Part shown: piece after piece, positions 20,177 to 64,000 of the stretch
Numbering within the stretch: position 1 is the first letter of the stretch
Layout of the letters: each line of letters starts with the position of its first letter
From: a virus
Length of the DNA stretch: 64,000 bases
Direction: 5' to 3' (one strand)
Virus record (IMG/VR): IMGVR_UViG_3300025141_000047
Span: 28,799-92,798 of that record
Notes under the pieces: model-generated
Told to the model about the DNA's origin: nothing
What the model saw: only the letters and a program-made list of their open reading frames with translations
The model's database searches: none
Translations under genes and position numbers: made by a program

Positions 20177-21325
20177 TCAGGCGGATAGGTCACGGATCTT
20201 GCCGTGTGCGCCATAAAAGAGTTGCCAAAGTTCACCCATTGTGTGGAAGAGTCCGACTTGACCAAGACGGTTGATACCGAATGGATCGCCAGTCTCGATT
20301 CCGCTTTCGTGGTAAAGAGTTGGTTTTGCTGTGCAGAAATACATATAGTCTGTATCAAGCATATAGATGCGAGATAGGCCACCAGTTGGTGCATGAACGT
20401 CTTTTGCAGGGATGATAGGAACGCCGTTGTAGGTTGCGACTACAAAGCCACCTTCCATACCAGGGATTCCTTGAACACCGTTCACGGAGGGGGTGACTCT
20501 CTTCATCTCAGTAAATCGTTGCTGAGGCTGCAAGAGTTGTTGAATTTTCTCGATGGTATCATACCCTGTGAGCATGACCTTTGGCTGACCTCCACGTTCC
20601 CAGACACTTCGGAACATTCCATCAAGAATGTTCAAGGTCAAAGGTCGTTCAGCACCAGCAGTTCCCATATCCACGTTTGCATCGAACCAGTCGTTTGCGC
20701 CAGTGGAGTTGCGAGTAATTGAATACATATTGTGGTCTGTCAAAGCCGAAATATCGCCAAAGGAAGCAGGTTCACTGAAAGACGATGATGTAGCACGATC
20801 AATGGATTCAAAGTTGTTTCCAGCGACAGTATCAACATCTCGAAGAAGCATCTTGTTGATTGATTCAGCGTGGGATTTTGACATCTCCATCTTGATAACT
20901 GCTCTTGCATCGCCCAGTCCATCATCCTTGTCTGCAAGGAACATGGCGGTTTCGCTGAGGTCAAACTTGGAAGCCACAGTCTTTGGCTTGGTGCTGACTT
21001 CTGCAAATGTTGGCTTGGTGGAATCAGGTAGCGCACCGTTCTCAGGAAGACCTACTGCATCAGTTGGCTTTCCAGTCACGACACGCCATCCAGACTTCTC
21101 CCAGGGTTTCTTAGGAAGAATTGAGAATGCGTTGAACTCTTGGTTCAATTGCGACCAGACTTTGCGGCCAAATATCGCTTGGTAAGTTCCAGCAGTTGAG
21201 GACATCAACGGTGAATCAGCCTTGAGTAAGTCTGTTCCGCTATATGCCCATGCGTTTGTTCCAGCACCCGCACCGTAGTAAAGGCGTTCCATGTCTTCGA
21301 TTGTTCGGATATATCCTTGCGTCAT
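20177..21325 (-). CDS. Major capsid protein (HK97 fold, magrovirus/HGTV-1-like)
   Basis: Start MTQGYIRTIEDMERLYYG with GGAGATGA SD. IFGRKVWSQLNQEFNAFSILPKKPW is recognisable from magrovirus-type MCPs. Follows the protease. Confidence 0.92.
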   Translation of the reverse strand: MTQGYIRTIEDMERLYYGAGAGTNAWAYSGTDLLKADSPLMSSTAGTYQAIFGRKVWSQLNQEFNAFSILPKKPWEKSGWRVVTGKPTDAVGLPENGALPDSTKPTFAEVSTKPKTVASKFDLSETAMFLADKDDGLGDARAVIKMEMSKSHAESINKMLLRDVDTVAGNNFESIDRATSSSFSEPASFGDISALTDHNMYSITRNSTGANDWFDANVDMGTAGAERPLTLNILDGMFRSVWERGGQPKVMLTGYDTIEKIQQLLQPQQRFTEMKRVTPSVNGVQGIPGMEGGFVVATYNGVPIIPAKDVHAPTGGLSRIYMLDTDYMYFCTAKPTLYHESGIETGDPFGINRLGQVGLFHTMGELWQLFYGAHGKIRDLSA

Positions 21326-21354
21326 CTTTTTCATCTCCATTTATTTTTTGATTT

Positions 21355-22683
21355 TCACTCGCCTCGCAAAGCACGTTGAGCGAGCATTTCTGCTGCTCGC
21401 CAGCCATCAAGGTCTGTTCCCATTGCATTGAACTCATCATGAGTCGGCACACGGATGGAAGTTGTAGGTTGGGTTGGTGAAACATCGCTCTTTTGTAGCG
21501 ATGCGTTCTCGGACTTGAGCATTGCGATCTCTTCACGGAGGGAGTTGAGTTGAACTCCAACATCGTTTGCCTTTCGCATCTCAATAGCCTGAGTTGTTTC
21601 AGCGTTGTATCGCTCTTGCCATTCTTTCTCAACAAGACCCTTTACTGCTTCTTCATCACGGAGAGCAGCGTAGGTTCGATAGCCCTTTTCCAATGTTTCA
21701 GGAGTCAAGGACTTGATAACGTTTCCATTGCCTTTTGGTGCGTTCATTTTCATTGATGGCGCACGTGGGGCTTTGATGACATTTTGATTGCCGCTTGGGG
21801 ATGGGAGAGAAGGATAGGATGGCTCGGATGCACCTTCGCCAGAACCTACTTCATCGCCTTGTCCTCGATGGGAATATCCGCCACGACCTTGTTCAAGAAG
21901 GTATGCCTTCTCTAAGCCGAAGTGACCACGAACTGCATTCAAATCAACGCCAGATTCATGAGCGAACTTTTCAAGTGTGGTGATATAGTCAAGAGCCGCT
22001 TCATCCGCATGGGATTTCTGGGTGTCTTGGTATTCATCGCTCTTTTCTTCCTTTTCTTCGGATTTTTCGCTCAGTTCTTTGAGGACTGAGTTCAGTCCAG
22101 CCTTTATTTCATTCAGGGTTTCAGTATTGCTCATATTATCATCTTCCATTTTTAGTATTGTGTAGGTTGATTCTGGGTTTATTCCTTTCTTGCATAGCGT
22201 GATTTCATGCAATTCAAGATCGGTAATCTCTCTATGGTTTCCAAGTTCTGGTGTGGTTTTACTCACACGGAATAGGGCTTGACCGCCAATCGAGAATGCT
22301 CGCAAGTCACCGTTGCGAATTTGCTTTTGCACTTCACGTGCTTTTTGAATGTCGCTGCGGATTTTGCAGACGACGAAGAGGCCGTGATCATCAACTTCGG
22401 ATTTCCAAACACGGCCTTCTGCATCGGTGTGGTCGCCAACGACTTCACCAACTTGGATTCCTGAATGTGCTAACTGAACATTGCGGAATGCTTTGTTATC
22501 CATGAATTGACCGAATGCTTTCTTTAGAGCAGCAGTTGGGATTCTATCTCCCTGCTTATCGACCATATCAACAGATGCGTAGCCAGCAACAAAGAGTTCG
22601 CCTTGACTACCTGATGACTTCAACAAAAAATCCGATCCTTCCGCATTCCATGATGCGGTGTGGAGTTCGAGACTGGTCGCCAT
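21355..22683 (-). CDS. Prohead protease (HK97 family) fused to a scaffold-like C-terminus
   Basis: GYASVDMVDKQGD, catalytic H (LAHSG), FSIGG and LHEITL motifs; acidic coiled-coil C-terminus. Confidence 0.9.
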   Translation of the reverse strand: MATSLELHTASWNAEGSDFLLKSSGSQGELFVAGYASVDMVDKQGDRIPTAALKKAFGQFMDNKAFRNVQLAHSGIQVGEVVGDHTDAEGRVWKSEVDDHGLFVVCKIRSDIQKAREVQKQIRNGDLRAFSIGGQALFRVSKTTPELGNHREITDLELHEITLCKKGINPESTYTILKMEDDNMSNTETLNEIKAGLNSVLKELSEKSEEKEEKSDEYQDTQKSHADEAALDYITTLEKFAHESGVDLNAVRGHFGLEKAYLLEQGRGGYSHRGQGDEVGSGEGASEPSYPSLPSPSGNQNVIKAPRAPSMKMNAPKGNGNVIKSLTPETLEKGYRTYAALRDEEAVKGLVEKEWQERYNAETTQAIEMRKANDVGVQLNSLREEIAMLKSENASLQKSDVSPTQPTTSIRVPTHDEFNAMGTDLDGWRAAEMLAQRALRGE

Positions 22684-32672: not shown

Positions 32673-32681
32673 ATTAGATCA

Positions 32682-48183: not shown

Positions 48184-48188
48184 AAATC

Positions 48189-50035: not shown

Positions 50036-50037
50036 TT

Positions 50038-51558: not shown

Positions 51559-52034
51559 ATCAAGTCATCCTCGCTTACTTTGGAATTAGGTCTTGTCAAT
51601 TCACCACTTTCAAGCCTTTTCATGGCTTCTTCAACTGGTTTTCCCCTAAACGTGCGTCTTGTTGATCGGGTTTCATCCTTTGTTGATTGAAGTTCATGCC
51701 TTTCTTTCATCTCAGGGTCGGCAGCCCAATTTTCTTTTCGCTTTTCTTGATCACGTGCTATCCGTCTTGCATTCTCTTCCGAGCCTGGTTCATAAGTTCT
51801 CAAAGCATTCTTTTCACGTTGCTTCATTCGAGATGCTTCATTCGCCCAATAATGAACAACACCACGACTTACTGGTATTCCTTCCTCGTTAAACAAACGC
51901 CATATTGCCGCTTGGCTCATCCCTTCGGATGCAAGTTGAGCAATACGCTTAATGTCCTCTTCGGTGAGCGTGTATCTCCGATCTGCTGCTGGCATTTTCA
52001 TCAAGTCCCAAGCGGTGTCAAAGGCGTTCACCAT
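51555..52034 (-). CDS. Leader-bearing helix-turn-helix protein
   Basis: AFDTAWDLMK; LTEEDIKRIAQLASEGMSQAAIWRLF...VSRGVVHYW. Confidence 0.75.
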   Translation of the reverse strand: MVNAFDTAWDLMKMPAADRRYTLTEEDIKRIAQLASEGMSQAAIWRLFNEEGIPVSRGVVHYWANEASRMKQREKNALRTYEPGSEENARRIARDQEKRKENWAADPEMKERHELQSTKDETRSTRRTFRGKPVEEAMKRLESGELTRPNSKVSEDDLI

Positions 52035-52582
52035 CCCGCCTCCCTAAGTTGCTGGCGATATTCATTTAATTGGTTTTTTCGTTTTTGTTTTGCTTGTTCC
52101 CATTCAAACCAAATATCATCGGAAGCATCAAGGTCTTCCATCTCGGAGAGTTCTGCAATTGCTTGTTGTCGCCCCTGTTCAGTCATAGGCCAGCGTATCT
52201 CTTCTAAATCCATACTTGGGTATGGTCCTTGTTCGTGAATAGATATGTGCTTAGGTTCAATGCGGTGTGGATAGCCATGAGTTATTATTTCAGGAAGATT
52301 TGAAGTTGTATTCATTCGCCTGTGAGGGACAGATTCAATCCCCTCGTCTGTGATGTGTAGTATGGTTGGTGGGCTTCCAGAACGGGTCGCCTGTTTCCTC
52401 GCATGATACCTTGCCTCTTTTTCATCCCCCGCCATGAAAAAGGCAGCAGGGTTGCGTCTAAAAGAGGGGCGAGGATCTTTTTGGGCTTTTGTTCCACCAC
52501 TTAGGATCTTTTGCGCCGAAGCAAAATCGGTTCCGTGATAGGGCATTTTGAGTAAAGACCATGCGGTATCGAAGGCGGTCAT
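52028..52582 (-). CDS. Leader-bearing ADP-ribosyltransferase-like protein
   Basis: MTAFDTAWSLLK then MPYHGT...KILSGG...EARYHA...ILHI...IEPKHI, a Tpt1/KptA-like ART pattern. Confidence 0.7.
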   Translation of the reverse strand: MTAFDTAWSLLKMPYHGTDFASAQKILSGGTKAQKDPRPSFRRNPAAFFMAGDEKEARYHARKQATRSGSPPTILHITDEGIESVPHRRMNTTSNLPEIITHGYPHRIEPKHISIHEQGPYPSMDLEEIRWPMTEQGRQQAIAELSEMEDLDASDDIWFEWEQAKQKRKNQLNEYRQQLREAGW

Positions 52583-53664
52583 GATAACTCCCCCCTTTCA
52601 TGTTGGCGCATCATCTCTTTTCGCCATTCATCAACCTTATTTGACCATTCATCCCATCGTAGCCGATCAAGTGAAATCTGCTTTGCTGCCCTTGCTCTTG
52701 GTTTTTTAGGTCCATGAATGACTTGCAGGGCTTCTGGAGGTATTGCATTGGGGGATGCCATATAACCCATCCCTTCATTCATGGAAGGATTTTTTATTGC
52801 CTCGCTTGGAAAGTGCAACAAAACAGGATCGCCCAAGTTCCTCTCATCCGAGCGTATTTTTGAATATGAAATTGCTGCGTCTGGGTCATCGGAGTAAAAG
52901 ACCAATGGCGGCAAGAATTGATTTGCTCGTTGAGGTTGGATGCCCTCTCGCATAATTTGAGGCAAAACATCGGTTGTTGTGCCGTGATACGGCATTTTCA
53001 TCAAATCCCATGATTTTTTGAATAATTCTGGGTTTGGGGCAACGGGGGAGTCGCCCCTGTAAGGGAATAATTTTGCATTGGGGTGCGCTTGAGAAAGAGC
53101 CGTAGCCATAACTTCTAACAACTCCATGCGCCTACTTATCCGTTTTGGTGTTTCATCGGGGCGACCCCAACCTGGTGCTGGACTTCTCCCAAAATCAGTA
53201 TCGTAAGCATCAAACAAAGGTTCGCCATCCCAAGCCCCTACTTGGTTTGCTGCCGTTCTTCCTTCTCCTTGAGATAATGAAGCACCATCATAAACCCGAT
53301 AATTGCCATCGTTGTCACGATATGCGAACAACTCTCCCATTGCCCCATGTAAAGCCATCTCCCTTCCCTTTTGTGGCCTACCATCCTCCCAAGCATCAGT
53401 ATAATTTTGAATAGATATGTTAATTGGAGGGTATCTTTGTTGATAGGGTTTGAGAATCGGATCTAAATGATCTGTATGTTCTGCATGAAAATCCCAATCA
53501 CTTGATGAGGTATCATCCCCTTCTTCGACCTTATCTCTCCCCCAAATCTGTTTCCGCTTCGGATGCCTCCATTCATAAGAAGGGGAATTAGGATCTAATT
53601 CCAATGAACCTGGCACTACGGGCATTTTCATCAAGTCCCAAACGTGGGTAAATGATGATGGCAT
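52579..53664 (-). CDS. Two-module protein: leader + unknown domain, internal leader + ART-like domain
   Basis: MPSSFTHVWDLMK at the start; internal LFKKSWDLMK then MPYHGT...IMREGIQP...VFYSDD...IPPEAL. Confidence 0.72.
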   Translation of the reverse strand: MPSSFTHVWDLMKMPVVPGSLELDPNSPSYEWRHPKRKQIWGRDKVEEGDDTSSSDWDFHAEHTDHLDPILKPYQQRYPPINISIQNYTDAWEDGRPQKGREMALHGAMGELFAYRDNDGNYRVYDGASLSQGEGRTAANQVGAWDGEPLFDAYDTDFGRSPAPGWGRPDETPKRISRRMELLEVMATALSQAHPNAKLFPYRGDSPVAPNPELFKKSWDLMKMPYHGTTTDVLPQIMREGIQPQRANQFLPPLVFYSDDPDAAISYSKIRSDERNLGDPVLLHFPSEAIKNPSMNEGMGYMASPNAIPPEALQVIHGPKKPRARAAKQISLDRLRWDEWSNKVDEWRKEMMRQHERGELS

Positions 53665-53708
53665 GAATGGTGCAAGCCTCATTAAAACATAAACCCATTC
53701 CCACCAAC

Positions 53709-53778
53709 AAAAAAAAAAGCGTAGGATTTCCCAGTTTAGACACGGTTCAGGGGCTTGCCCCAATCCCAACAAAAAAAA
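53709..53778 (-). terminator. Two oligo-T tracts (archaeal-type terminator candidates)
   Basis: T8 and T10 on the minus strand, each followed by GTTGG, in an intergenic gap. Confidence 0.45.
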
Positions 53779-53973
53779 TCTAACGAATCAACAAATGTCT
53801 TTGAAGCCGCATGATTCGATGGGTCGCAAATGGGGCTTAATTCCGCCCGTATATTGGCTCAATCCATACATTCGCAGCACGTTTGACAAACGCTCTCTTC
53901 GCCATAGCAAAGGCTCTTGCACATTAACTGCGAGGTTGAGGTTATAAATTAAACCTTCTCAGCCCTGTTAGGG

Positions 53974-54609
53974 CTATTGGTCGTTGATATATGGGCGTGG
54001 CATCCTTGCCGTTGGCTCTTGGAACATCAAGCCTTCTGTTGCTCTTTGGTGCGCTTCTAATCCCCCTGGGTTCTCAAGCGTATATGCTGCAATTTCATGG
54101 GCGGTTCTGTCATTTACTCCATCATCTCGAATCATCGGCAAACCAACTGCTTGATGCCCCCATTCATGGCTGAGAGTTGAAATGATATTGTCAATAATGC
54201 GTCTTTCCGTATCAGGAGGCAAAGACATATCTCCCACATCATGCAAACCGTAATCTTGATCAGGTATCATGTTGGGTAAATTGACCGCCACATATTCATC
54301 CAGATATTTTGTTTGTGGAGATGAAATCGGGCGGATTCTTGAACCGCCCATTCGATATGGAGTCCCGTAGTAATCCTCAATCTCTCCCGCCATTGCCTCA
54401 TCATTACGTTCAGCCTCCGCAGCATCAAGGTAAGGCGTAGTGCTTCCCTGCATTTCAGGGGGTGCGCCGATTTGATAGATTGGTTTTACCTGCTGATCGG
54501 TAAATCCTTGAATATATCCTCCGCTTCTTCCATGCCTTTCATCACTTGTCATATTGGGTGCAAACACGAAGTCTTTCAGCAAATCCCAAGTGGTGTCAAA
54601 TGCCGTCAT
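53974..54609 (-). CDS. Leader-bearing HExxH zincin-like protein
   Basis: MTAFDTTWDLLK; VNL...LSHEWGH...HEIAAY. Confidence 0.75.
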   Translation of the reverse strand: MTAFDTTWDLLKDFVFAPNMTSDERHGRSGGYIQGFTDQQVKPIYQIGAPPEMQGSTTPYLDAAEAERNDEAMAGEIEDYYGTPYRMGGSRIRPISSPQTKYLDEYVAVNLPNMIPDQDYGLHDVGDMSLPPDTERRIIDNIISTLSHEWGHQAVGLPMIRDDGVNDRTAHEIAAYTLENPGGLEAHQRATEGLMFQEPTARMPRPYINDQ

Positions 54610-55159
54610 TGTCCTCTCTCTCCCTCAGTGATGGTATATCACCTTGTAATTGCCACATAGCCTCATGTTCTCTTTCCAACACCCAATCACGGTGTTGCTC
54701 ATCTAATTCTTCATCGGTTTCCTTCACCCCATACCAGTCTTCGGCACCAGGTCCAAACCAAGCATTCTTTCCTAACTCCCTCGCCCAATGTTGTAATAGG
54801 TCTGTGCTATCAAGAGCAACGCCAGCACCAAAGGTTGGGGAGTCATGCAAGTGTTCATGCTCAAGAACATGGATGAGGTCGGCCATATTCAGTTCATTGT
54901 CTGGATCAAAATCTCTCCAATGTTCATGTGCTAAATTGACCACTGGAACATTACCTGCGGCATTATCCCAGAAAGCCTCATTTTCGGCTGTATCTTGGAT
55001 TCTATCGGGGTCAAATGATTCCATCTCGTCGTGATACACCCATCTGCGGGGAATAACCATTGATCTTGTTGGCGCATATCCTAATGCGTTTTCTTTGCCT
55101 TCTTCTGGATTAAATGTGAAATCCTTGAGCAAAGCCCAAGCCGTATCAAATGCCGTCAA
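54596..55159 (-). CDS. Leader-bearing HExxH zincin-like protein
   Basis: TTG start overlapping the upstream stop; TAFDTAWALLK; VNL...LEHEHLH...HEAMW. Confidence 0.72.
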   Translation of the reverse strand: MTAFDTAWALLKDFTFNPEEGKENALGYAPTRSMVIPRRWVYHDEMESFDPDRIQDTAENEAFWDNAAGNVPVVNLAHEHWRDFDPDNELNMADLIHVLEHEHLHDSPTFGAGVALDSTDLLQHWARELGKNAWFGPGAEDWYGVKETDEELDEQHRDWVLEREHEAMWQLQGDIPSLREREDNDGI

Positions 55160-56025
55160 AACCACACCGCCTTGAACTTGCTCTTGGTTTCATTGTATTT
55201 GTTTTTAGCGGCAATTTTCAATGTTGGGTTCTTGATTTTGTGCGCCAACCTGCGAGCCGCTTTGAGTTCGGACAACTTAACGCCACAGTCAATGCCTCGC
55301 TTCTTGCACCACTTGACCAAATCCTCAGTCGCAAGGTTCGCACCAGAACTCTCAACAAACGGACAGCCGCCAAGACCACCGATGCTGGAATCAAACTCTT
55401 GAATGCCGTTTGAATATCCAGTCCCTACATTGTTCATCAAATGACGGCCATGATGGAGATGCAAAGCCAAGTCATGTGTAAATTCCTGTGCAGTATCTAT
55501 TCCCGTTGATATGTCAAAAGGCGTTGCCGTTCCTTTGGTGTCGCATAAAACAATTTTCTTTCCAAACCTCAAACCGTGTTGGATCGCCAATGCAAGTGAT
55601 TCCTTACTTGACTCAAACGCCTCCGAGATATAAACACGGACAAGTTCAGGGTCTATCCCATCAAGGGCTTCCTCGTAGTTGTCGAGAATGCGTTCTAATT
55701 TCAATCCGTAGTTGGCAACATTGAATGTGTCGCATGGTGAAAAGAAAATGTTGTAATGAGTCATGCCTGATGCAATCGCCCGATCCATCCCTCTTTGATT
55801 AGGGACAAGAACTGAAAATCCTGTCTTATCATCAAAGGCAGCGCACACCTGTTCAGCATCAGCCATGTTCGGAACGGCCTTTGGATGAACAAACGATGTG
55901 ATTTCAATTTGAGTCAAGCCAGCATCACGGAGATGTTTGATGAGTTGGATTTTATCATCGGTGGATGGAACGTGCGGCAGGTTTTGTAGCCCGTCACGTG
56001 GTCCGACTTCAAAAATGCGAATCAT
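55156..56025 (-). CDS. hmgL: Hydroxymethylglutaryl-CoA lyase (DRE-TIM family), no leader
   Basis: EVGPRDGLQN, SFVHPKAVP, LVPN, DT, HLH, GLGGCPF and NLATEDL; ATGA-coupled start. Confidence 0.88.
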   Translation of the reverse strand: MIRIFEVGPRDGLQNLPHVPSTDDKIQLIKHLRDAGLTQIEITSFVHPKAVPNMADAEQVCAAFDDKTGFSVLVPNQRGMDRAIASGMTHYNIFFSPCDTFNVANYGLKLERILDNYEEALDGIDPELVRVYISEAFESSKESLALAIQHGLRFGKKIVLCDTKGTATPFDISTGIDTAQEFTHDLALHLHHGRHLMNNVGTGYSNGIQEFDSSIGGLGGCPFVESSGANLATEDLVKWCKKRGIDCGVKLSELKAARRLAHKIKNPTLKIAAKNKYNETKSKFKAVWF

Positions 56026-56513
56026 GGCTCTCCCCCCTTCGGATAAATCCCATAGAGCCGTAGCATTCGCCACTTCTCATCCTCGTCAATTCCTGGCGTT
56101 CCAGTCCATGCGCCATATTCTTGAAAACGTTCCCAATCATTATCCACCTTTGCTTGAAGGCGAGCCTTTTCGTCTTCATCAACGTCTTCGCTATTCAATC
56201 CAAACATCGACACTTGATTCCATAAATCATCGGTATAAGGGGGATGAAGTGCTTGGTGCATATTCTCATGCCCCATTATTTGCATAACTCTCTCCATCAA
56301 CTCTTCATCTGTTCGAAATACACGTTGTTGCCCACCCCATCCATCGGGGTCATCAGGATGGTTTGTTTTGAAATCGGAAACATGACTGGCGAGATTGACA
56401 TAAGGCGTATCTGTTATTGGATCGTAAGCACCTTGTTGGATGATACCTGGAAAACCTGTATCGTATCGGAACTCTTTGAGCAAAGCCCAAGCAGCATCAA
56501 AACAATTAGACAA
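56022..56513 (-). CDS. Leader-bearing HExxH zincin-like protein
   Basis: TTG start with GGGAGG SD; CFDAAWALLK; VNL...MGHENMH...QEYGAW. Confidence 0.72.
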   Translation of the reverse strand: MSNCFDAAWALLKEFRYDTGFPGIIQQGAYDPITDTPYVNLASHVSDFKTNHPDDPDGWGGQQRVFRTDEELMERVMQIMGHENMHQALHPPYTDDLWNQVSMFGLNSEDVDEDEKARLQAKVDNDWERFQEYGAWTGTPGIDEDEKWRMLRLYGIYPKGGEP

Positions 56514-58014
56514 TGTAAGCCCTCCCGCAATCAAAAGGACAGGAAACTCCGCCGAGCATTCGATTATACATGACCTCTTCACCTGGCTTTATCAATCTCC
56601 CACAGACTTTGCAGTTGCCTGAGTATTTAGCAGGGAATTTACCCGAAAAAGGTTGAGCCTTCATCAAGCCCCATGATTTCATAAAGGCTCTTGAAGAATC
56701 AAAATCAACTCCACGATCTTCTGCTAAACCGTATTGGTTAATAATGTCATCAAGCAAAGCATCGCTTCCAAATTTAGGGTCATAGTAATGCCAGGGTGTT
56801 CTCATGTAAGGATTTGACTTGACCTTCGGTTTCAATCCCCAACCCTGTTGGCGGAATGAACCAGTCGGCTCACCGAACCTTTCTTTCAATGCTTCAAGGA
56901 GTTCTGGGTTTTCGTCATAACCATAGGGTGGAATGGTTGAAAGCGCATCATTCCCCAAAATATAATCATCCCAACGATTCTTTCCTTTCACCCAATCAAC
57001 AGGAACGGAGTCATAGTTCTCAAAGAACATTTCAGGATTGGCAATAGCAAAATCAAGCGAGTCAGGATCGGAGAGCATGGTGTTAAGCGTTGCTTGCCTT
57101 GCCGTTTCAAAATTGTTATCCATGTATTGAGATAATTCATCTCGCAACTGCAAACGCCCAATGCCCTCTTGAATGTCTTGCGGCAAATCACCAAAGCCTT
57201 CAATTCCTTCATCTGGCAATTTTTGGATTTGGCGAATCAAGGCTCTTGACGTGCGCTCGGCTTGTTTCTTCCTGTTCCTTGCATCATCAATGTCGCCAAA
57301 TTGGAAGTTGCCAGCACCAGTTCTTTTTCCTGTTGTTGCCGTTTGGTCAAGAATTGCATTGATGAGATTTCTTTTTGTTCGACTGCTCTCGTTAGCGTCA
57401 ATGTTTGCATCTCTAATCCTTTTGACATAACGATCTCCAACATCAGGATGACTCTTCATTCCTTGACGGAACTTGAGGCTTTCATGCGGATATTCCGACA
57501 TATAGGCAACGAACTCAGCCACACTTTTTTCATCCGAGTTCGAATTAGTATTGAACAACCCATACCCTCCACGCTGCCTGTTTGCTTGTAATTCTTGCCA
57601 ATCGTAATTCATACGCTCAGGGTCGGTTAAGTCGTGGGCGGAATGCCCTGCCTCATGAGATGCCGTATTACCAATCTGGCGAATCGCTGCTTGTTCCTTT
57701 GCATCTCGCATCCTTTTGCCATATTCTTCTGCTGGAAAATCATTGTTCATCATCATGTCATTATATTCTTCACGTGAAACGATGTCCTTTGCGTTTGCCC
57801 TTCTGTAAATCTCACCAGGATAAATCCAATCACGACCAACCACTTCACGATCATAATCGGAATAAGTCAAGTCGCCCTCATCATCACGCCCAATAGGAAC
57901 TCGATAACGGTAAGTTTCATCTCCCGAAGTAAAGTGGACTCCGAAGGGATCATTCCTTCTCCGTTCTCCTAAGAAACGGCCACCCACCTTGAAGTCGGAT
58001 TTCTTAATCATCAA
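56506..58014 (-). CDS. HExxH zincin-like protein with internal leader and C-terminal Zn finger
   Basis: ASHEAGH...AEFVAY; AFMKSWGLMK then AKYSGNCKVCG...C...C. Confidence 0.7.
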   Translation of the reverse strand: MMIKKSDFKVGGRFLGERRRNDPFGVHFTSGDETYRYRVPIGRDDEGDLTYSDYDREVVGRDWIYPGEIYRRANAKDIVSREEYNDMMMNNDFPAEEYGKRMRDAKEQAAIRQIGNTASHEAGHSAHDLTDPERMNYDWQELQANRQRGGYGLFNTNSNSDEKSVAEFVAYMSEYPHESLKFRQGMKSHPDVGDRYVKRIRDANIDANESSRTKRNLINAILDQTATTGKRTGAGNFQFGDIDDARNRKKQAERTSRALIRQIQKLPDEGIEGFGDLPQDIQEGIGRLQLRDELSQYMDNNFETARQATLNTMLSDPDSLDFAIANPEMFFENYDSVPVDWVKGKNRWDDYILGNDALSTIPPYGYDENPELLEALKERFGEPTGSFRQQGWGLKPKVKSNPYMRTPWHYYDPKFGSDALLDDIINQYGLAEDRGVDFDSSRAFMKSWGLMKAQPFSGKFPAKYSGNCKVCGRLIKPGEEVMYNRMLGGVSCPFDCGRAYIV

Positions 58015-58850
58015 TACCCCTCCAACCATTTTGGTTTGCCGTGAACGGTCAATTCATTTGGATTATCCGAATACGGTTCAAGGAGTTCCAGATAATTAAG
58101 GAAGTGTCGCAACTTGTAATTAGGGTCGTTGGCTTTATCGGTTCTTTCAAAATTATTGAGAATACGTGAGGCAGGGTGCTGAATGCCATAAGAACCCAAC
58201 AAGGCTTCTTGGTGGCTTTCTGGATCATCAACAGCCCACCCCATCTCTTGCCCGAACATATCAAGGTCAAACATACGAACTAAACCTTTTGAATCAACGC
58301 CATAATTTTGATGTTGCCGATCTCCAACCAATGCTGATAATATCGTATCAACTTCTCGAATCTGTTCATCCGAACCATCAACACGGTTCAAACGTGGCTG
58401 AACACGATATTTATTTTCCATCCCAACCATTTCATTCTCCCATATCGGTAAAGAGGGCGAACCCATCTCTCCCACGATAGGGTAGCCTATTTCTTCTAAA
58501 AATCGGATTGAATCATCATGTTGCCCTCTTTTGTCAAATTGCCTTTGATGCCATGTGCCGAGATAAGGCACTTTAGCGACAAAATCCTTGTCAAGTGGAT
58601 GGGTAAATGTTCCAACCTTTGTGCCTTCTCCTAAAAAATCGGGGTATTTATCTGGGGATTCAATGGCTGTATCTCCATCAATTTCTTTGTGAGTTCTTCT
58701 GTCTCGAAACCTTTCCCCATCTTCTTCTGGATTAGGATATAGACTCAAATAAGAATCAATGTATTCCAAGTCTAACAAATGTTCAGCATTCTCACGCCAA
58801 TTCGGAACGTATTGTTTCAAAATACCCCACGCTCGGTCAAAGGCGGTCAT
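58011..58850 (-). CDS. Leader-bearing protein-kinase-like protein
   Basis: MTAFDRAWGILK; LGEGT loop, VAKVP lysine, GDRQHQNYG catalytic loop and MFDLD. Confidence 0.75.
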   Translation of the reverse strand: MTAFDRAWGILKQYVPNWRENAEHLLDLEYIDSYLSLYPNPEEDGERFRDRRTHKEIDGDTAIESPDKYPDFLGEGTKVGTFTHPLDKDFVAKVPYLGTWHQRQFDKRGQHDDSIRFLEEIGYPIVGEMGSPSLPIWENEMVGMENKYRVQPRLNRVDGSDEQIREVDTILSALVGDRQHQNYGVDSKGLVRMFDLDMFGQEMGWAVDDPESHQEALLGSYGIQHPASRILNNFERTDKANDPNYKLRHFLNYLELLEPYSDNPNELTVHGKPKWLEGY

Positions 58851-59371
58851 GTCTTATACCTCCGCATCAATTCATCAATGTGAGCCTGTCTTTCATCAGC
58901 CCCATATTCACTTCCCGATGTAGCAACAATTGGATGATCCCAACCGTGTTCATCGTTTCTCCCCATCAGTCCTTCAATCAATTCCCACATTTCATTTGAG
59001 TCCATCTCTTCAAATTGTAGGTCGGGGAATGGACTTTTGGACTCATGATCTCGGACTCCCCCAATTTGAGTAAAACCCGCACCAGTATGGCCTTCATCTC
59101 CTTCTAAACGGTGTATTTGTTCTGTTTTTGGGGCAATTCTCACGATTGGCTCTCCTTCGTGCATTGGAGTATCAAGCATTTGTGAACCAAAAACGGCATA
59201 GGCGAGGGCGGTGTCTAAATCAGGAGTCCAATATCCCGTATCGGCCATGCCTTGTTTTGCCCCTTGATATAGGGTTTCATGTTCGTGAAAAGACGAAAGA
59301 GGATCGGAGGGGTCGTCAATGATTTCATAGGGCATTTTTAGCAAGTTCCATGCTCGGTCAAAGGCGGTCAT
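58847..59371 (-). CDS. Leader-bearing ART-like protein
   Basis: MTAFDRAWNLLK; LYQG...YWTPDLDTALAYA. Confidence 0.6.
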   Translation of the reverse strand: MTAFDRAWNLLKMPYEIIDDPSDPLSSFHEHETLYQGAKQGMADTGYWTPDLDTALAYAVFGSQMLDTPMHEGEPIVRIAPKTEQIHRLEGDEGHTGAGFTQIGGVRDHESKSPFPDLQFEEMDSNEMWELIEGLMGRNDEHGWDHPIVATSGSEYGADERQAHIDELMRRYKT

Positions 59372-59840
59372 TATTCCACCTCTCAAGTGCTTCATTTGCT
59401 AATGGGGTCATGGCGGCTCTCCATCTATGCCTTGTTGGTTGTTTAGGCAAAGGTAAATCGTCAGCATCCATAGCGGCATAATACTTGTCATTCATTTCCT
59501 TTTCCCAATCCGCATAGGGTTGCCCTCTCCATATCTCCTGTGAATGTTCGGCGGGAATATCAAACGGATAATAACCATAACCCGCATATTCGTCATAATC
59601 ACCAACGCCTTCTATGGTTCGTGGTAAATAATGGACTAAGGGGGCTTCGTCGGGTTTTGCTGAACCGAGAGCATAAGCGAGAGCCGTAGCCATAGAATCG
59701 CTCGCCCAAATCCCTTTACGATCCTTTTCAACCTGCCTTGCAGGTATTACGCCTTCTTGCATGGCTTGATCGTAGTATTTGTCCTGTGTCCCTCGTAGTG
59801 GTGCTTTCACCACATACCATGCTCGGTCAAAGGCGGTCAT
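59358..59840 (-). CDS. Leader-bearing ART-like protein
   Basis: MTAFDRAWYVVK; LRGT...QEGVIP...IWASDSMATALAYA...IPAEH. Confidence 0.62.
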   Translation of the reverse strand: MTAFDRAWYVVKAPLRGTQDKYYDQAMQEGVIPARQVEKDRKGIWASDSMATALAYALGSAKPDEAPLVHYLPRTIEGVGDYDEYAGYGYYPFDIPAEHSQEIWRGQPYADWEKEMNDKYYAAMDADDLPLPKQPTRHRWRAAMTPLANEALERWNNDRL

Positions 59841-59995
59841 GACTCTCCCTTCCTCAAACCATTCCAACAAAGTTCTTGCAGTTCTTCATCACTGGTGAAT
59901 ATCACTACATTGCTTCCGAGATCGTCAAGAGCCATCCACATTGTAAAGAAACCTGCAATGAAAGCAAGAACAAACCAGACCCACAGATTAAACAT
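59837..59995 (-). CDS. Small single-TM protein, 52 aa
   Basis: Below the track cut-off. AGGAGGTGA SD; MFNLWVWFVLAFIAGFFTMWMAL; ATGA overlap with the next gene. Confidence 0.65.
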   Translation of the reverse strand: MFNLWVWFVLAFIAGFFTMWMALDDLGSNVVIFTSDEELQELCWNGLRKGES

Positions 59996-60017
59996 TATAT
60001 CACCTCCTTATTCTTCA

Positions 60018-63000
60018 TCATGAATAATCCCTCAAACGGTTAAACAATGCAAAGGCTTCATCATTTGACATGGCGGGGTTATCGGACATACCCTGCCAAA
60101 ACTCAACGTCACGTGGAAACACCTTCATGAAATTATCATAAATCGCTTGTTGTTTTGGAGAGTTCTCAAACAAACTTCTATCAGGCATATTCGCCAGCAA
60201 TTCAGCAAGCCGTGTTGATTTAGGAAGAGGGTAAGAATCGTGCAATGCGCCTATTGTTTGGATGAAATCTGTGTTTGGGTTATCGTCTTGCGGGTTGAAC
60301 CATCTCGGACCACTTCTGTATTTTATCCCTGAGTCATCACTTTGACCACCTTCTCCGTAGTTGCTAACATAGTCTTCTTCACCAGTTCCTAAATCCATGA
60401 CTCTTTTTCCGTCTTCTGGCTGCATCCCTTCATCAGCCGCATAATTTGACCCTCGAACTCTAAAATTGGTCGGAAGTGTTCTTGGACCTCTCGCATCAGC
60501 AAACGGTAATTTTCCATTATTCCCGTAGGCCATTCCAATTGGATATTTGTTATTTGGATCAACTATGAATGGCATTGGATTAGGGAACAAGCCTATTGCT
60601 TCGTCATCGTTCCCAGGTGTATTGAACGTTCTTACCGAACTCACAGGGAGTATGGCTCTTTTTCCAGGGTTCAATGCGAGATAACGCATCAACGGATTAT
60701 CTCTCATACGGTCTTTTAATTCAAACAATCTATCTGGCCTATCTCTAAATCCGCCACTCCATTCTTTACCTGAGATTGAATCAAAACGTTCTTTGGCGGC
60801 TGCTATGTCCTCTTCGGTTGGATTGCCAGTTATCCTATTCCAAGTATCAACGGCTTCTTCATAGGATTGGTGGTATAGGTCTTTACCTGCGGCTTCTCTC
60901 TCGGCTTTTGTTTGAAAAGTCCATTGCTCATCCCTCATACTGGGGTGATCGTAAGCCATCTTCATATCAAGGTAAGGCTGGCGGTTTCGATTGTATGTAG
61001 CCATGTCTTCATCTGTCATTTCGTATTTTGATTGCAGTTCTCCTGGGTGTCGCTTGAATCGAGCAAATTTGCCTTCTTCATCAAACATAGGGGCGAACCC
61101 CTTCACGTAATGTGAAAAATCTATGTTGTCTTGGAGATTGATACCTTCTGGAGTTATCCCAAACAATTCTTCATATTGAGGATTTTCCCTCATGATTTCA
61201 TCAAAAGGCTGTCGAGAATATGGGCGGCGTAATCTTGTTGAATAAGGAAGAGGCTTACCTGTTTCAGCATCCAAAGGAACGTTGCCTCCCGCTTGAGGTC
61301 GGAAAACTCTTTCCGATACATATTTTGGCATACCATACACTGGGTCCATCTCAAATCCAACTGAACGTGTTGGCAAATCCTGTCCGAACATTTTCGCTGC
61401 CGCCTTATCTCTTGCATCATAAGTGTCTCCTTCTTTACGTGGCCTTAACATTGGTCCGTAAGGTCCATCATAACCGCCCGTTCCAACTCGCATTGTTGGC
61501 GAACCTCTAAGGTAAAACGATGTTAGAAGCGGCCTTCCCGTTTCGTCTAATCCAATGTTCGGACCTAATCTCGAAGACGCATCAAGTTGTAAAAATCTCA
61601 GCAATGGGTCATCCCATTCACCACCACCTATGTTGCTCATGCGTTTATTTTCGTCATACCGATCTCTCCCCGCTTCCATCGACAACTGCTTATATCGCCG
61701 CAACTCTTGATTCAAAGCATTGGCTAAACGCCCTTGCGGGGTATCGGGTCCGTATGTGGGTTTGAATTTATCAGGTTCCTCTCGGTTCTGTTGGGCAAAG
61801 TTCCTCGCCCATTCATGAACATTAACACCTTGTCTTTGAAGGAACTCACGGCCACGTGCTGTGTCTAATTCAGCGTTATTCCATGCCGCAGCCAAGTCAT
61901 CTGGAACGTTTTGACCTGCGAACTTGTGACCCGCCACATTATCACGGAACATATCTTGCCAAGTGTAGTCATCAAAGTATTCGTCATCAGGCCACCTTTT
62001 TCTCGGACCCGACGATACATCAGGGACTACATCGACTTTATCTTGCATGATCGCTCGGATTTTTCCTTCATCATCACCAAATCCAACTTCTCCCATCGGA
62101 GTCATTGGCGCAACTGGATAACCCATCGCTGCAAGTGCGTGGCTAAAGGCAATCGGCAATGTAGCCCCTGCGTTTAATTTGAAAACTTTGTTTGGATTGG
62201 CAGGGTTTTGATAAACGGCTTTTGTTCTCTTGTCAATGAATGGACCGCCCCGATGTGCAAATTGTCGCTGAGGCATAGCAGGGTCAAGTCTTTGCCCGTA
62301 AGTCCTCATCCATTCCATCTGTTCAGGAGTTATGTCGCCGCCCATTCCAATTGGGAAAGGCGGTATATCAGCCTTGATCAACAGTTCTTCATAAGAATTA
62401 ACTTCAATCACTTCTATTTTGGTGATGGAGTCCCACGCAACCTCAGCAGGATCGGAACTCGCAACGAACATATCATGGTCTTTATCCGCTTCCGAAAAAT
62501 CAGTTCCCATTGCCTGTTGCTTACAGGCGTTGTATTCCATCAAGGCTTGGCGAACCTGGTCTTTGCGAAGTTGCTCTTTGTCGCTATCATACTCATGGCC
62601 GCTTATATCCACATCACGTGGCAATGGGTCATGAGGGGGGTTATGTTTCCAAGTTGAGGCTATACGATCATATTCCTCTCGGCTTTCCCAATCAAGATCC
62701 CATATCTCAAGTTGCACCTCAACCCTTGATGCAAACTCTTCACAGTCCTTATCGGAATAAACGTCTTCCAATTCACGGTGCAATAGTTCCATGCCCCAAG
62801 TATCAATAGGAATGGCGTTGATGGTTTCTTTCAAAGAACGGCAACATTGACCTGCGCTTGCATCATAACCTGCTTTATCGGCATCATCACGCATCACATT
62901 TTCGAGTCCATCTTGTAATATCCGATTTGAAAGATCCGTAGCAGCCCTTTGCTGTGGCGATAATTCCTCATAAGGAACGTTCACCTTCCAGTTTGGTTCC

Positions 63001-63383
63001 TTAATGATAGAATCCCACGATCTGCGAAAATAGTCCTCCATTCCCTTTGGAGGCTTACCATACATTGCTTTCATTTTAGCACGTGCCGCAGCATCAGCAA
63101 CAAGACTTTCAGCCATCGCCTGTTCTATTTCATCCGAAGCATCACTGGTTTCGCAAAAACCATGTTCACCACCACATGAGCAAGGGCAACAGTCCTCCGC
63201 TTTATCGGGCATATTATGGCCTCTTAAACCACACTTCCAACAAGTTTCACAGCATTCCTCAGCCTCATGAGTTTCCTGATACCCTGTTGCACATTTGCCA
63301 CATTGAACCGTTCCATCATCATGTTCGATAAGAGGGTGTATTTTGGTGATAGAGTCCCAACTTGCATTGAAAATATCCACCAT
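60018..63383 (-). CDS. Putative polyprotein with three leader-like motifs: Cys-rich module, helical module, degenerate kinase-like module
   Basis: IFNASWDSITK (start), YFRRSWDSIIK (~63000-63030) and EVAWDSITK (~62418-62444). Confidence 0.7.
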   Translation of the reverse strand: MVDIFNASWDSITKIHPLIEHDDGTVQCGKCATGYQETHEAEECCETCWKCGLRGHNMPDKAEDCCPCSCGGEHGFCETSDASDEIEQAMAESLVADAAARAKMKAMYGKPPKGMEDYFRRSWDSIIKEPNWKVNVPYEELSPQQRAATDLSNRILQDGLENVMRDDADKAGYDASAGQCCRSLKETINAIPIDTWGMELLHRELEDVYSDKDCEEFASRVEVQLEIWDLDWESREEYDRIASTWKHNPPHDPLPRDVDISGHEYDSDKEQLRKDQVRQALMEYNACKQQAMGTDFSEADKDHDMFVASSDPAEVAWDSITKIEVIEVNSYEELLIKADIPPFPIGMGGDITPEQMEWMRTYGQRLDPAMPQRQFAHRGGPFIDKRTKAVYQNPANPNKVFKLNAGATLPIAFSHALAAMGYPVAPMTPMGEVGFGDDEGKIRAIMQDKVDVVPDVSSGPRKRWPDDEYFDDYTWQDMFRDNVAGHKFAGQNVPDDLAAAWNNAELDTARGREFLQRQGVNVHEWARNFAQQNREEPDKFKPTYGPDTPQGRLANALNQELRRYKQLSMEAGRDRYDENKRMSNIGGGEWDDPLLRFLQLDASSRLGPNIGLDETGRPLLTSFYLRGSPTMRVGTGGYDGPYGPMLRPRKEGDTYDARDKAAAKMFGQDLPTRSVGFEMDPVYGMPKYVSERVFRPQAGGNVPLDAETGKPLPYSTRLRRPYSRQPFDEIMRENPQYEELFGITPEGINLQDNIDFSHYVKGFAPMFDEEGKFARFKRHPGELQSKYEMTDEDMATYNRNRQPYLDMKMAYDHPSMRDEQWTFQTKAEREAAGKDLYHQSYEEAVDTWNRITGNPTEEDIAAAKERFDSISGKEWSGGFRDRPDRLFELKDRMRDNPLMRYLALNPGKRAILPVSSVRTFNTPGNDDEAIGLFPNPMPFIVDPNNKYPIGMAYGNNGKLPFADARGPRTLPTNFRVRGSNYAADEGMQPEDGKRVMDLGTGEEDYVSNYGEGGQSDDSGIKYRSGPRWFNPQDDNPNTDFIQTIGALHDSYPLPKSTRLAELLANMPDRSLFENSPKQQAIYDNFMKVFPRDVEFWQGMSDNPAMSNDEAFALFNRLRDYS

Positions 63384-63496
63384 ATCTAACCGCATACGGC
63401 AGTTTGAAATAAAACCATCCCAACTACTTGACATTCCTAACAACTTTTTCCCCAAATTTTTTCCTCGTAGCATCTGGGGTCAATGGCCGCCCCAAC

Positions 63497-63509
63497 AAAA
63501 AAAAAAAAA
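63497..63509 (-). terminator. T13 tract followed by GTTGG
   Basis: Same (T)nGTTGG context as the tracts at 53709 and 53771. Confidence 0.4.
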
Positions 63510-63560
63510 CATCTCCAGACTTACCCCGCACAGACAAAAAACGGGGGGCTGCGTGGCCTC

Positions 63561-63910
63561 ACTGGGTCGGCACACCCAGTCCATAGGCTCTCAGTGATGC
63601 GTTCTGTGGTGATACGGGCGAGTCGCAGACTCGCCCCCCCTCGCTCAGTCGGTTGGCTCAGTGGATCGTGGCGTGGTCGGTGGTTCTGTGGCGATGCACC
63701 CAGTCATGCACCCAGTCTGCCCTTCACCTCGCTCAGTCTGTGGCGATAGGTGGCGTTCTGGCGGGTTCTGTGGCGTTATCTGCACACCCAGTCCGATACT
63801 CAGTCAAACACCCAGTTCAACGCTCATTTAGGCTCAATCTGTGGCGTTATCGGCGCATTTCGAGGCACACCCAGTCCAAAACCACGCTAAACACCCAGTC
63901 CGACACCCAA
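63561..63910. repeat. Non-coding iteron-like repeat cluster
   Basis: CACCCAGT x7 (63573, 63697, 63709, 63785, 63809, 63868, 63892), CTGTGGCG x4, CTCAGT x5, and an inverted pair at 63561-63580. Confidence 0.8.
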
Positions 63911-64000
63911 AAACGCTGCATCCAGGCTCTATCGGGACAATTTATCGCAACACTTTGTCTTATTTCTCACCGATCTCAACAACACACCGAGCCTCACGGC

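What the first reader, a model, noticed from the sequence alone, without database searches (positions are those of the whole stretch)
52579..63383. The leader recurs internally at domain boundaries, suggesting protease-processed polyproteins
Seen: internal copies LFKKSWDLMK|MPYHGT (~52996-53025, directly before an ART domain), AFMKSWGLMK|AQP (~56659-56688, before a Zn finger), and YFRRSWDSIIK and EVAWDSITK within the 60018-63383 protein. Two copies in that gene are near-identical in DNA (62417-62436 vs 63341-63360). The Dam-like domain is preceded by SLEK|MP. Inference: adjacent leader-cargo cassettes have fused and are separated again by cleavage. The motif therefore does not need a free N-terminus, which argues against a translation-initiation or export signal.
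Basis: partly seen in the sequence, partly recalled or inferred. Interest (0 to 1): 0.8.

Follow-up and report, generated by a model that had tools for sequence, protein, structure and literature searches.

The report
Shared tag marks fused cargo modules
In an uncultured ocean virus of archaea, a ten-residue peptide tag that normally starts about twenty accessory proteins also sits exactly at the joints of three larger proteins. Related viruses encode the joined pieces as separate tagged genes, so these are fused cassettes, but whether they are cut apart again is still unproven.

Summary
Internal tag copies are at 52996-53022, 56659-56685, 63000-63029 and 62418-62444. The DNA near-identity is 20 of 21 bases, at 62415-62435 against 63339-63359.

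The fused-cassette reading is shown by comparison. For all three proteins, relatives encode the modules separately, and the homology breaks fall on the tag.
- **361-aa protein:** the N module stands alone in P0022. The ART-fold module stands alone, with the tag at its N-terminus, in more than 10 cluster representatives.
- **1121-aa protein:** modules A, B and C occur alone or in other combinations.
- **507-aa protein:** the Zn-finger tail exists as 62-aa tagged proteins.

The tag therefore works at the N-terminus, internally or at the C-terminus. SLEK|MP is not a tag copy.

Cleavage is not shown. Support for it is circumstantial. The tag ends in hydrophobic-hydrophobic-Lys. The same tripeptide is conserved in the capsid protein (K|AD, invariant out to haloviruses), in the S78 protease-scaffold protein and in a 1153-aa head protein, there just before a variable Gly/Ala linker.

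This scan already noted the tag in this genome (e1-5979622) and analogous tagged cargo arrays in bacterial phages. The magrovirus papers I read do not mention it.

The parts
52579..53664 (-). 361-aa two-module protein: tag, N module, tag, ART-fold module
   Evidence: ORF and translation. P0022 (213 aa) matches residues 2-215 only. P0024-28 and P0032 (144-164 aa) match 214-360 with the tag at their N-terminus. A fused orthologue, 66% identical, is in L003.
53626..53652 (-). N-terminal tag FTHVWDLMK|MP of the 361-aa protein
   Evidence: matrix score 25.6. AF2 predicts a helix at residues 4-12.
52996..53022 (-). Internal tag FKKSWDLMK|MPYHGT at the junction of the N module and the ART module
   Evidence: score 17.0. 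No start codon upstream. AF2 predicts a helix at 212-222 between the modules. Conserved as FKKSWNLMK|MPFHG in L003.
52579..52995 (-). ART-fold module (Tpt1/KptA-like NAD-binding fold), paralogous to the neighbouring gene 52028-52582
   Evidence: pLDDT 81-97. Foldseek E 1e-4 to 2e-3 against Tpt1/KptA, followed by DarT and ART toxins. BLASTP E 1e-9 against the neighbouring gene.
56506..58011 (-). About 501-aa HExxH protein (homologues start at MIKKSDF) carrying a tag followed by a Zn-finger tail
   Evidence: H125, E126, H129 and H132 are invariant. No Pfam or PDB sequence match.
56659..56685 (-). Tag FMKSWGLMK. It is the native C-terminal tag of the family, here internal and hybrid with the Zn-finger cassette's leader.
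   Evidence: 12 of 16 aligned homologues end ...FMKSW(E/G)MMR at the stop codon. AF2 predicts a helix at 445-456 with pLDDT below 50.
56506..56658 (-). 50-aa 4-Cys Zn-finger module
   Evidence: It stands alone as the 62-aa proteins P0055 and P0056, with a canonical N-terminal tag and 81-82% identity.
60018..63383 (-). 1121-aa three-module protein: tag, A (Cys-rich), tag, B, tag, C
63342..63371 (-). Tag 1, FNASWDSITK, N-terminal after MVDI
63000..63029 (-). Tag 2, FRRSWDSIIK, between modules A and B. A Met is retained 3 codons upstream (MEDYF).
   Evidence: P0052-54 start with module B at their own N-terminal tag and align to residues 119-326. P0051 has A, then this tag, then a different module.
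62418..62444 (-). Tag 3, (A)EVAWDSITK, between modules B and C. The Phe position has been lost.
   Evidence: P0046-50 (822-839 aa) and L004:2146-4683 are module C alone with an intact N-terminal tag. Their alignments start at residue 314 or 316.
21355..22683 (-). S78 prohead protease fused to a scaffold-like C-terminal half; the candidate processing enzyme
   Evidence: Pfam PF04586, E 4.9e-11. FLLK|S, YTILK|M, NVIK|AP and NVIK|S are conserved next to variable linkers in 47 unique homologues.
20177..21340 (-). Major capsid protein with a putative maturation site ...TDLLK|ADSPL (K40|A41)
   Evidence: Pfam SU10_MCP. The site is conserved in 80 loci. K-A-D is invariant against the HVTV-1 and HCTV-1 capsid proteins, at the end of their roughly 100-aa N-terminal extension.

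Best explanation
**Setting.** The window is from a magrovirus-like tailed virus of marine group II archaea. Its genome is 92.8 kb. The capsid protein is 33% identical only to those of haloarchaeal siphoviruses.

**The tag.** About two dozen accessory proteins carry one short amphipathic helix. Type 1 reads F-(D/E)-x-A-W-x-L-L-K. Type 2 reads F-x-x-(A/S)-W-D-S-I-T-K. Both keep the face F(i), W(i+4), L/I(i+7), and both end in hydrophobic-hydrophobic-Lys.

**Shown here.**
- The tag is position-independent: N-terminal in most genes, C-terminal in the 450-aa HExxH family, internal in fusions.
- The internal copies in 52579-63383 lie exactly at the joints of modules that related viruses encode as separate tagged genes or in other combinations.

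**Inferred.**
- Fusion and fission happen by in-frame recombination within or next to the tag. The 507-aa junction holds one hybrid tag: its first half comes from the upstream protein's C-terminal tag, its second half from the Zn-finger cassette's leader.
- The F/W/L face docks the protein to a component of the assembling head (scaffold half of the protease protein, capsid interior or portal). A changeable set of enzymes would thus be loaded and delivered with the DNA: ART-fold proteins, DNA methyltransferases, HExxH proteins and Zn fingers.
- The S78 prohead protease cuts after the terminal Lys. That would remove N-terminal tags and separate fused modules, as phage T4 does with its capsid-targeting sequence.
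For: **Fusion is shown.**
- 361-aa protein: the homology ranges of the stand-alone forms meet at the tag. A fused orthologue occurs in an independent assembly.
- 1121-aa protein: module C stands alone in P0046-50 and L004. B and A occur in other combinations in P0051-54. All breaks fall at tags.
- 507-aa protein: 12 of 16 homologues end at the tag. The Zn finger stands alone with its own tag.

**The tag is a peptide signal.** Synonymous sites vary between copies. AF2 predicts a helix for the tags at residues 4-12, 212-222 and 445-456, each outside the confidently folded cores.

**The case for cleavage is circumstantial.**
- The capsid protein has LLK|AD, with K-A-D invariant out to haloviruses, at the boundary of their N-terminal extension.
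- The protease-scaffold protein has conserved Phi-Phi-K sites followed by variable linkers.
- The 1153-aa head protein has a conserved W-x6-LLK|EG followed by a hypervariable Gly/Ala linker.
- D-Phi-Phi-K occurs 18 times against 7.1 expected. 7 of the 18 have a Trp upstream, and all 7 are tags or head proteins.
- Decay is asymmetric. Where nothing follows the tag, F..W is invariant but LLK becomes MMR. Where an upstream tag already exists, the F or the F/W half is lost but the ..IK| end is kept (tag 3 of the big protein; P0035).

**Context.** The array lies directly upstream of the terminase, portal, protease and capsid genes and is co-oriented with them.

**Precedent.** In T4, diverse internal proteins share only a capsid-targeting sequence (PMC3012670). 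Phage effector proteins, including ARTs and methyltransferases, are packaged in heads (PMC5512222).
Against: - There is no virion, proteomic or cleavage data for any magrovirus.
- A C-terminal tag with nothing after it shows that the tag can work without being cut.
- Phi-Phi-K is a common tripeptide, so only its conservation pattern carries weight, not its count.
- Spacing differs. W to K is 9-10 residues in the head proteins but 4-5 in the tag.
- The P1' residue is not constrained.
That points to a role in the cell rather than in the capsid.
- The asymmetric decay rests on only three cases.
- The N modules were folded at low confidence, so 'inter-domain linker' rests mainly on homology breaks.
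Confidence: 0.55

Rival explanations
1. Docking tag only, with no cleavage. The helix binds its receptor wherever it sits in the chain. The fused proteins stay intact as small 'polyvalent' proteins. Internal copies are extra docking sites or relics of the fusion.
For: The tag is native at the extreme C-terminus in 12 of 16 homologues of the 507-aa protein, where nothing can be cut off. The residue after Lys is variable. No cleavage data exist.
Against: Lys (or Arg) is kept at the end of nearly all copies. Internal copies that lost F or W still keep the ..IK| end. The same ending marks conserved boundaries in the capsid, protease and 1153-aa head proteins.
Confidence: 0.25
2. The proteins are processed, but by the array's own HExxH (zincin-like) proteins rather than the S78 prohead protease. 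This could happen after delivery into the host, as proposed for bacterial polyvalent proteins.
For: Four HExxH proteins lie in the array: 53974, 54596, 56022 and 56506. Their motif residues are invariant. Iyer et al. 2017 propose zincin-like metallopeptidases as the processors of multidomain phage effectors (PMC5512222).
Against: The HExxH assignment rests on the motif only. There is no Pfam or PDB sequence match, and the fold model is poor. The tag's ending matches sites in the classical substrates of the head protease.
Confidence: 0.1
3. The tag addresses proteins to something other than the capsid. Candidates are a host or viral hub protein, the viral chaperonin or a replication factory. 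The F-x3-W-x2-L face would dock into a hydrophobic cleft, as in p53-MDM2-type interactions.
For: The triad F(i), W(i+4), L/I(i+7) is the most conserved feature across types 1 and 2 and the C-terminal variant. DNA methyltransferases are among the tagged proteins. Tagged genes also occur outside the late arm, near 81-87 kb in G001.
Against: The main array is co-oriented with the head genes and lies directly upstream of them. The terminal Lys and its match to head-protein boundaries would be left unexplained. The cargo repertoire (ART, methyltransferase, peptidase) is that of known head-delivered effectors (PMC5512222).
Confidence: 0.09
4. Chance resemblance or assembly artefact: the internal copies are accidental matches, or genes merged by sequencing errors.
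For: The internal copies score lower than the N-terminal ones (15.8-17.0 against 25-32). This is close to the 95th percentile of the shuffle maximum, 16.1.
Against: Three such hits are seen where about 0.3 above score 12 are expected. The homology breaks coincide with the motif in seven independent comparisons. Fused forms recur in independent assemblies: L003, L001/G005, P0002 and P0051-54.
Confidence: 0.01

Closest known systems
Capsid targeting sequence (CTS) of phage T4 internal proteins IPI-III and Alt, removed by prohead protease gp21 (PMC3012670)
   Same: A short shared peptide of about 10 residues sits on otherwise unrelated, fast-changing accessory proteins that include an ADP-ribosyltransferase. 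It ends in a residue that matches the putative head-protease site. The genes lie with the head genes.
   Different: There is no sequence similarity. The ending is Lys, not Glu. The protease is S78 (HK97-type), not gp21-type. The tag also works internally and at the C-terminus and serves as the joint of fused modules. The host is archaeal. Neither loading nor cutting has been shown.
Polyvalent proteins of phages and conjugative elements (Iyer, Burroughs, Anand, de Souza, Aravind 2017, PMC5512222)
   Same: The domain repertoire is similar: ART, DNA methyltransferases, HExxH peptidase-like domains and Zn-binding modules. Delivery with the DNA and proteolytic release of domains are proposed for them.
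   Different: Here the set is mostly split into single-domain genes, each with its own tag. Only two- and three-module fusions occur. The joints carry one defined peptide. No MuF-type head-anchoring domain was identified.
Propeptide- and polyprotein-type processing of head and ejection proteins in giant phages (phiKZ, SPN3US; PMC5694885, PMC7411985, PMC10052503)
   Same: Many head-internal proteins are cut by the prohead protease at a short consensus. In those phages, paralogous families of ejection proteins are known.
   Different: The protease family and site differ, and those systems have experimental proof. They have no single tag that is reused as N-terminal, internal and C-terminal signal.
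Encapsulin cargo-loading peptides and the C-terminal encapsidation segment of the HK97 protease (from my own knowledge, not read here)
   Same: A short terminal peptide docks cargo to the inside of an HK97-fold shell. It can sit at either end of the cargo.
   Different: The sequences are unrelated and are not cleaved. There, cargo is metabolic rather than a diverse effector set.

Membership tests
T4-type capsid targeting sequence system | One short peptide shared by otherwise unrelated proteins encoded by one virus | tested here: met
   21 strict copies in the 92.8-kb genome, on proteins with different or no Pfam families.
T4-type capsid targeting sequence system | The peptide is N-terminal and is removed by the prohead protease | not testable with these tools
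   Most copies follow the start codon within 2-4 residues, but internal and C-terminal copies exist. Removal cannot be observed here. Only the site resemblance can.
T4-type capsid targeting sequence system | Sequence or protease homology to T4 (gp21-type protease, site after Glu) | tested here: not met
   The protease is Pfam S78, PF04586. The tag ends in Lys.
T4-type capsid targeting sequence system | The tag is sufficient to load a protein into the prohead | not testable with these tools
   This needs an expression experiment.
Protease-processed viral polyprotein | Several independently functional modules in one reading frame | tested here: met
   The modules occur as separate genes in relatives.
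Protease-processed viral polyprotein | Defined cleavage sites at the module junctions, matching the viral protease's specificity | tested here: inconclusive
   The junction tags end in Phi-Phi-K, like the conserved boundaries in the capsid, protease and head proteins. The protease's specificity is not known experimentally.
Protease-processed viral polyprotein | Cleavage products are observed | not testable with these tools
   The virus is uncultured and no proteome is available.
Polyvalent proteins (Iyer et al. 2017) | Very large multidomain proteins that combine many effector domains | tested here: not met
   The largest has 1121 aa and three modules. Most cargo proteins have a single module.
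Polyvalent proteins (Iyer et al. 2017) | Characteristic domain repertoire (ART, DNA methyltransferase, zincin-like peptidase) | tested here: met
   ART fold. C5 and D12 methyltransferases. HExxH is met at motif level only.
ADP-ribosyltransferase superfamily (module 52579-52995) | ART fold | tested here: met
   Foldseek probability 1.00, E 1e-4 to 2e-3, about 97 aligned columns at rmsd 3.2-3.6 against Tpt1/KptA, followed by DarT and ART toxins.
ADP-ribosyltransferase superfamily (module 52579-52995) | Catalytic H-Y-E or R-S-E residues in place | not tested
   YHGT and the (F/Y)YS strand are conserved in alignment A2. The third catalytic position was not mapped.

The most novel reading that the evidence does not exclude
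The tag would be a three-in-one device of archaeal tailed viruses. It would act as a position-independent loading signal for the capsid, as the cutting site of the head protease, and as an in-frame recombination joint. Effector modules could then be fused, split and reshuffled without losing delivery. It would be the first indication that archaeal head-tailed viruses inject a changeable enzyme arsenal with their DNA.
Probability: 0.35. Interest if true: 0.8.

Novelty: new variant of a known kind. Interest (0 to 1): 0.62.

Why it matters
Marine group II archaea and their viruses are abundant in the surface ocean, but neither can be grown, so how these viruses take over their hosts is unknown. 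A readable address tag gives a sequence-only way to list the proteins a virus probably delivers with its DNA: ART-fold enzymes, DNA methyltransferases and peptidase-like proteins.

The split and fused forms show how such effector sets evolve, as cassettes joined and separated at the tag itself. The tag is short and works at either end or inside a chain. This suggests a simple experimental handle for loading foreign proteins into HK97-type shells. It also links the 'many small tagged genes' layout to the giant polyvalent proteins of bacterial phages.

Tried and rejected
**Searches that gave little or nothing**
- Megablast of 44000-64000 against named phages: no match.
- The search for related loci with the 361-aa protein in viral contigs: none.
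- The same tool with alignment A1: only 1 viral locus and 3 metagenome loci.
I therefore could not check whether the stand-alone N module P0022 and a stand-alone ART gene are neighbours.
- Pfam gave nothing for 9 of the array proteins.
- A PDB profile search with A1 gave nothing below E 0.1.

**Models**
- AF2 folded the N module of the 361-aa protein and most of the 507-aa protein at low confidence. Burial of the tags could therefore not be judged from models. Homology breaks were used instead.

**Readings rejected**
- A translation-start or DNA-level signal: the tag occurs at C-termini, and synonymous sites vary.
- Internal translation starts: there is no start codon before 52996. A Met is, however, retained before tag 2 of the big protein.
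- SLEK|MP as a decayed leader.
- A rule that internal copies are basic (FKKSW, FRRSW) and N-terminal ones acidic: both kinds occur in both positions.
- The tag as a feature shared with haloarchaeal relatives: HVTV-1 has no hit.

**Literature**
- I could not read the J Virol 2013 paper with N-terminal sequences of the HVTV-1 capsid protein. It is not held.
Full report
**What the window is.** All long ORFs in the window are on the minus strand. The structural genes identified are:
- portal, 28207-30009
- large terminase, 31236-32678
- S78 prohead protease with a long C-terminal extension, 21355-22707
- HK97-type capsid protein, 20177-21340

The capsid protein's only named relatives are those of the haloarchaeal siphoviruses HVTV-1, HCTV-1 and HCTV-5, at 32-33% identity. 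Philosof et al. 2017 report exactly this for magroviruses (PMC5434244). The record is one contig of 92,798 bases. 250 IMG/VR contigs encode close capsid relatives.

**The tag.** Most genes between 44.7 and 63.4 kb begin with M-T-A-F-D-x-A-W-x-L-L-K.
- A loose regex finds 16 copies in the window, all in coding frames of the minus strand.
- The stricter pattern finds 21 in the whole genome.
- There are two forms. Type 1 is F-D/E-x-A-W-x-L-L-K. Type 2 is one residue longer, F-x-x-A/S-W-D-S-I-T-K.
- Both keep F(i), W(i+4) and L/I(i+7), one face of a helix, and both end in Lys.
- Across 13 copies, identity is 0.68 at codon positions 1+2 and 0.49 at position 3. 35% of identical residue pairs use different codons. 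Selection therefore acts on the peptide.
- Three consecutive genes (59831, 59362, 58841) do share about 20-24 identical leader bases. So short DNA homology between copies also exists.

**Checking the observation.**
- A matrix built only from N-terminal copies scores the internal type-1 copies 17.0 and 15.8. Shuffled proteomes give 0.3 hits above 12 on average.
- The DNA near-identity is 20 of 21 bases, at 62415-62435 against 63339-63359.
- No start codon precedes the copy at 52996.

**Are the internal copies at module boundaries?** Yes, and this is the main result.

(a) *361-aa protein, 52579-53664.* An exhaustive HMMER search of cluster representatives gave 22 relevant hits.
- P0022 (213 aa) covers residues 2-215 and stops where the internal tag begins.
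- P0024-28, P0032 and others (144-164 aa) cover 214-360. The internal tag corresponds to their own N-terminal M-x-A-F-x-x-A-W-x-L-x-K, followed by (A/M)PYHGT.
- P0023 joins the same module to a different 311-aa partner through an intact tag.
- P0035 joins it to yet another module through a decayed tag that keeps only ..VIK|AP.
- The fused form recurs in an independent metagenome contig at 66% identity, with FKKSWNLMK|MPFHG (L003).
- The C module is also a paralogue of the next gene, 52028-52582.

(b) *1121-aa protein, 60018-63383.* Numbering is from MVDIF. Tags lie at residues 5-14, 119-128 and 314-322.
- P0046-50 (822-839 aa) and L004:2146-4683 are module C alone with an N-terminal tag. They align from residue 314 or 316.
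- P0052-54 start with tag plus module B (aligned to 119-326), then continue through another tag into an unrelated module.
- P0051 has tag, module A, tag, then a different module.

(c) *507-aa HExxH protein, 56506-58029.*
- 12 of 16 aligned homologues, and 16 of the 20 database hits by length, are 438-465 aa and end with the tag itself: ..DSSRAFMKSW(E/G)MMR, then stop.
- Only the window, P0002 and G005 add the 50-aa Zn finger. P0013, P0014 and L003 add a different 110-aa Cys-containing module.
- The Zn finger exists as 62-aa proteins with a canonical N-terminal tag (P0055 and P0056).
- The junction in the window holds one tag. Its first half (FMKSW) is that of the upstream family. Its second half (GLMK|A.PFSG) is that of the Zn-finger cassette.
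- This is what recombination between two tag copies would leave. That step is inference.

**Structure.** With shallow alignments, AF2 folded only the ART module well (pLDDT 81-97).
- The internal tag is a helix at residues 212-222, just before the first strand of that domain. The N-terminal tag is a helix at 4-12.
- Foldseek places the module in the ART superfamily, closest to Tpt1/KptA, then DarT and ART toxins.
- In the 507-aa model the tag is a low-confidence helix at 445-456, between the last helix of the body and the Zn ribbon.
- These models agree with an exposed linker helix, but they are too weak to prove it.

**Is it cut?** This cannot be shown here. The observations that bear on it are as follows.
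1. The capsid protein reads ..NAWAYSGTDLLK|ADSPL in all 80 related loci. K-A-D is invariant in an alignment with the HVTV-1 and HCTV-1 capsid proteins. It sits where their roughly 100-residue N-terminal extension ends and the shared body begins. A maturation site is expected there.
2. The protease-scaffold protein keeps ..SW.A.GSDFLLK|S at its N-terminus, while the residues before it vary. It also keeps YTILK|M, NVIK|AP and NVIK|S next to poorly conserved linkers.
3. The 1153-aa head protein next to the protease keeps L-W-x-P-V-A-I-x-L-L-K|E-G, followed by a hypervariable Gly/Ala/Ser stretch, across diverse homologues.
4. D-Phi-Phi-K occurs 18 times in the proteome against 7.1 in shuffles. The seven with a Trp just upstream are five tags plus the capsid and 1153-aa proteins.
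5. Decay is asymmetric.
   - C-terminal copies keep F..W invariant but end MMR.
   - Tag 3 of the big protein lost its Phe, though all stand-alone orthologues keep it.
   - P0035 lost F and W but kept VIK|AP.

   This fits two separable jobs, docking (F/W/L) and cutting (Phi-Phi-K). It rests on three cases.

Points against cleavage:
- C-terminal tags cannot be cut off.
- The spacing from W to K differs between head proteins and tags.
- Phi-Phi-K is a common tripeptide.
- The residue after Lys is free.

I put cleavage at the tags at about one in two.

**The SLEK|MP claim.** The 764-aa protein 44765-47059 is also a fusion. In G001 the Dam-like part is its own ORF. That ORF begins 22 residues before the equivalent SIQK|MP, with no F..W tag. 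The dipeptide context is conserved, but it is not a leader copy and not the fusion joint.

**Comparison with known systems.**
- The logic matches T4's capsid targeting sequence, where only a short peptide is shared by diverse internal proteins and the prohead protease removes it (PMC3012670).
- The cargo repertoire matches that of head-delivered effectors and polyvalent proteins (PMC5512222). That paper also suggests zincin-like peptidases as processors. Since four HExxH proteins sit in the array, I keep this as a rival.
- There is no sequence relation to T4. The protease family differs. Unlike T4, the tag also works internally and at the C-terminus.
- HVTV-1 has no such tag.
- Three magrovirus papers do not mention it.
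- Within this scan, the tag was already described for this genome (e1-5979622). Analogous tagged arrays were noted in several bacterial phages.

**Verdict.** The fused-cassette reading is demonstrated by comparative evidence. The free-N-terminus argument is strengthened. Cleavage remains plausible but unproven. It is a new variant of a known kind of system, in an archaeal virus group where nothing of the sort has been reported.

Noticed in passing
window 37864-39324, tag at 38653-38682: A tag, FTHTWDSVIK, sits 214 residues into a protein and is followed by a 260-residue, extremely Lys/Arg-rich tail. The same arrangement occurs in G001 (FTYAWDSVLK|AKRRYK). It is a candidate DNA-condensing internal head protein.
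   Followed up: partly
window 17700-18110, tag at 17844-17870: The tag FEASWELMK is followed by a 48-residue CPxC Zn-finger tail and preceded by a Pro/Lys-rich low-complexity stretch. An orthologue is in G005 (FDTSWDLMK|FGDCPV). A Met 4 residues upstream leaves open whether the tag is internal or N-terminal.
   Followed up: partly
window 53974-54609, 54596-55165, 56022-56513, 56506-58011: Four different proteins in the array carry HExxH-type motifs (HEWGH, HEHLH, HENMH, HEAGH). None matches a Pfam family. They are possible zincin-like peptidases among the cargo.
   Followed up: partly
window 22726-26187, site near 23430-23440: The 1153-aa head protein has a conserved L-W-x-P-V-A-I-x-L-L-K|E-G followed by a hypervariable Gly/Ala/Ser linker in more than 50 related loci. 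It looks like a protease site at a domain end.
   Followed up: yes
window 58815-59831: Three consecutive genes share about 20-24 identical bases of leader DNA (ATGACCGCCTTTGACCGAGC.TGG). Other copies differ at synonymous sites. This suggests recent duplication or gene conversion among neighbours.
   Followed up: partly
window 55156-56073; L004:7944 and 8378: The untagged HMG-CoA-lyase-like gene starts MIRIFEV. In L004 the cassette inserted just before it starts MIRIFEVAWDSITK, with 18 of 22 bases shared. L004 has three extra tagged cassettes at this spot, so it may be a site of cassette insertion.
   Followed up: partly
G003 and G004 (IMG/VR contigs of 80.5 and 77.7 kb): In G003 both tag copies lie within about 2 kb of one contig end. 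G004 has only one copy. Both contigs probably break off at or before the tagged array, perhaps because the array is hypervariable or repetitive. Counts of tags in fragments are therefore underestimates.
   Followed up: no
window 44765-47059: The Dam-like methyltransferase is fused to an unrelated 340-residue N module in the window and in G002. In G001 it is a separate ORF. The joint carries no tag.
   Followed up: yes
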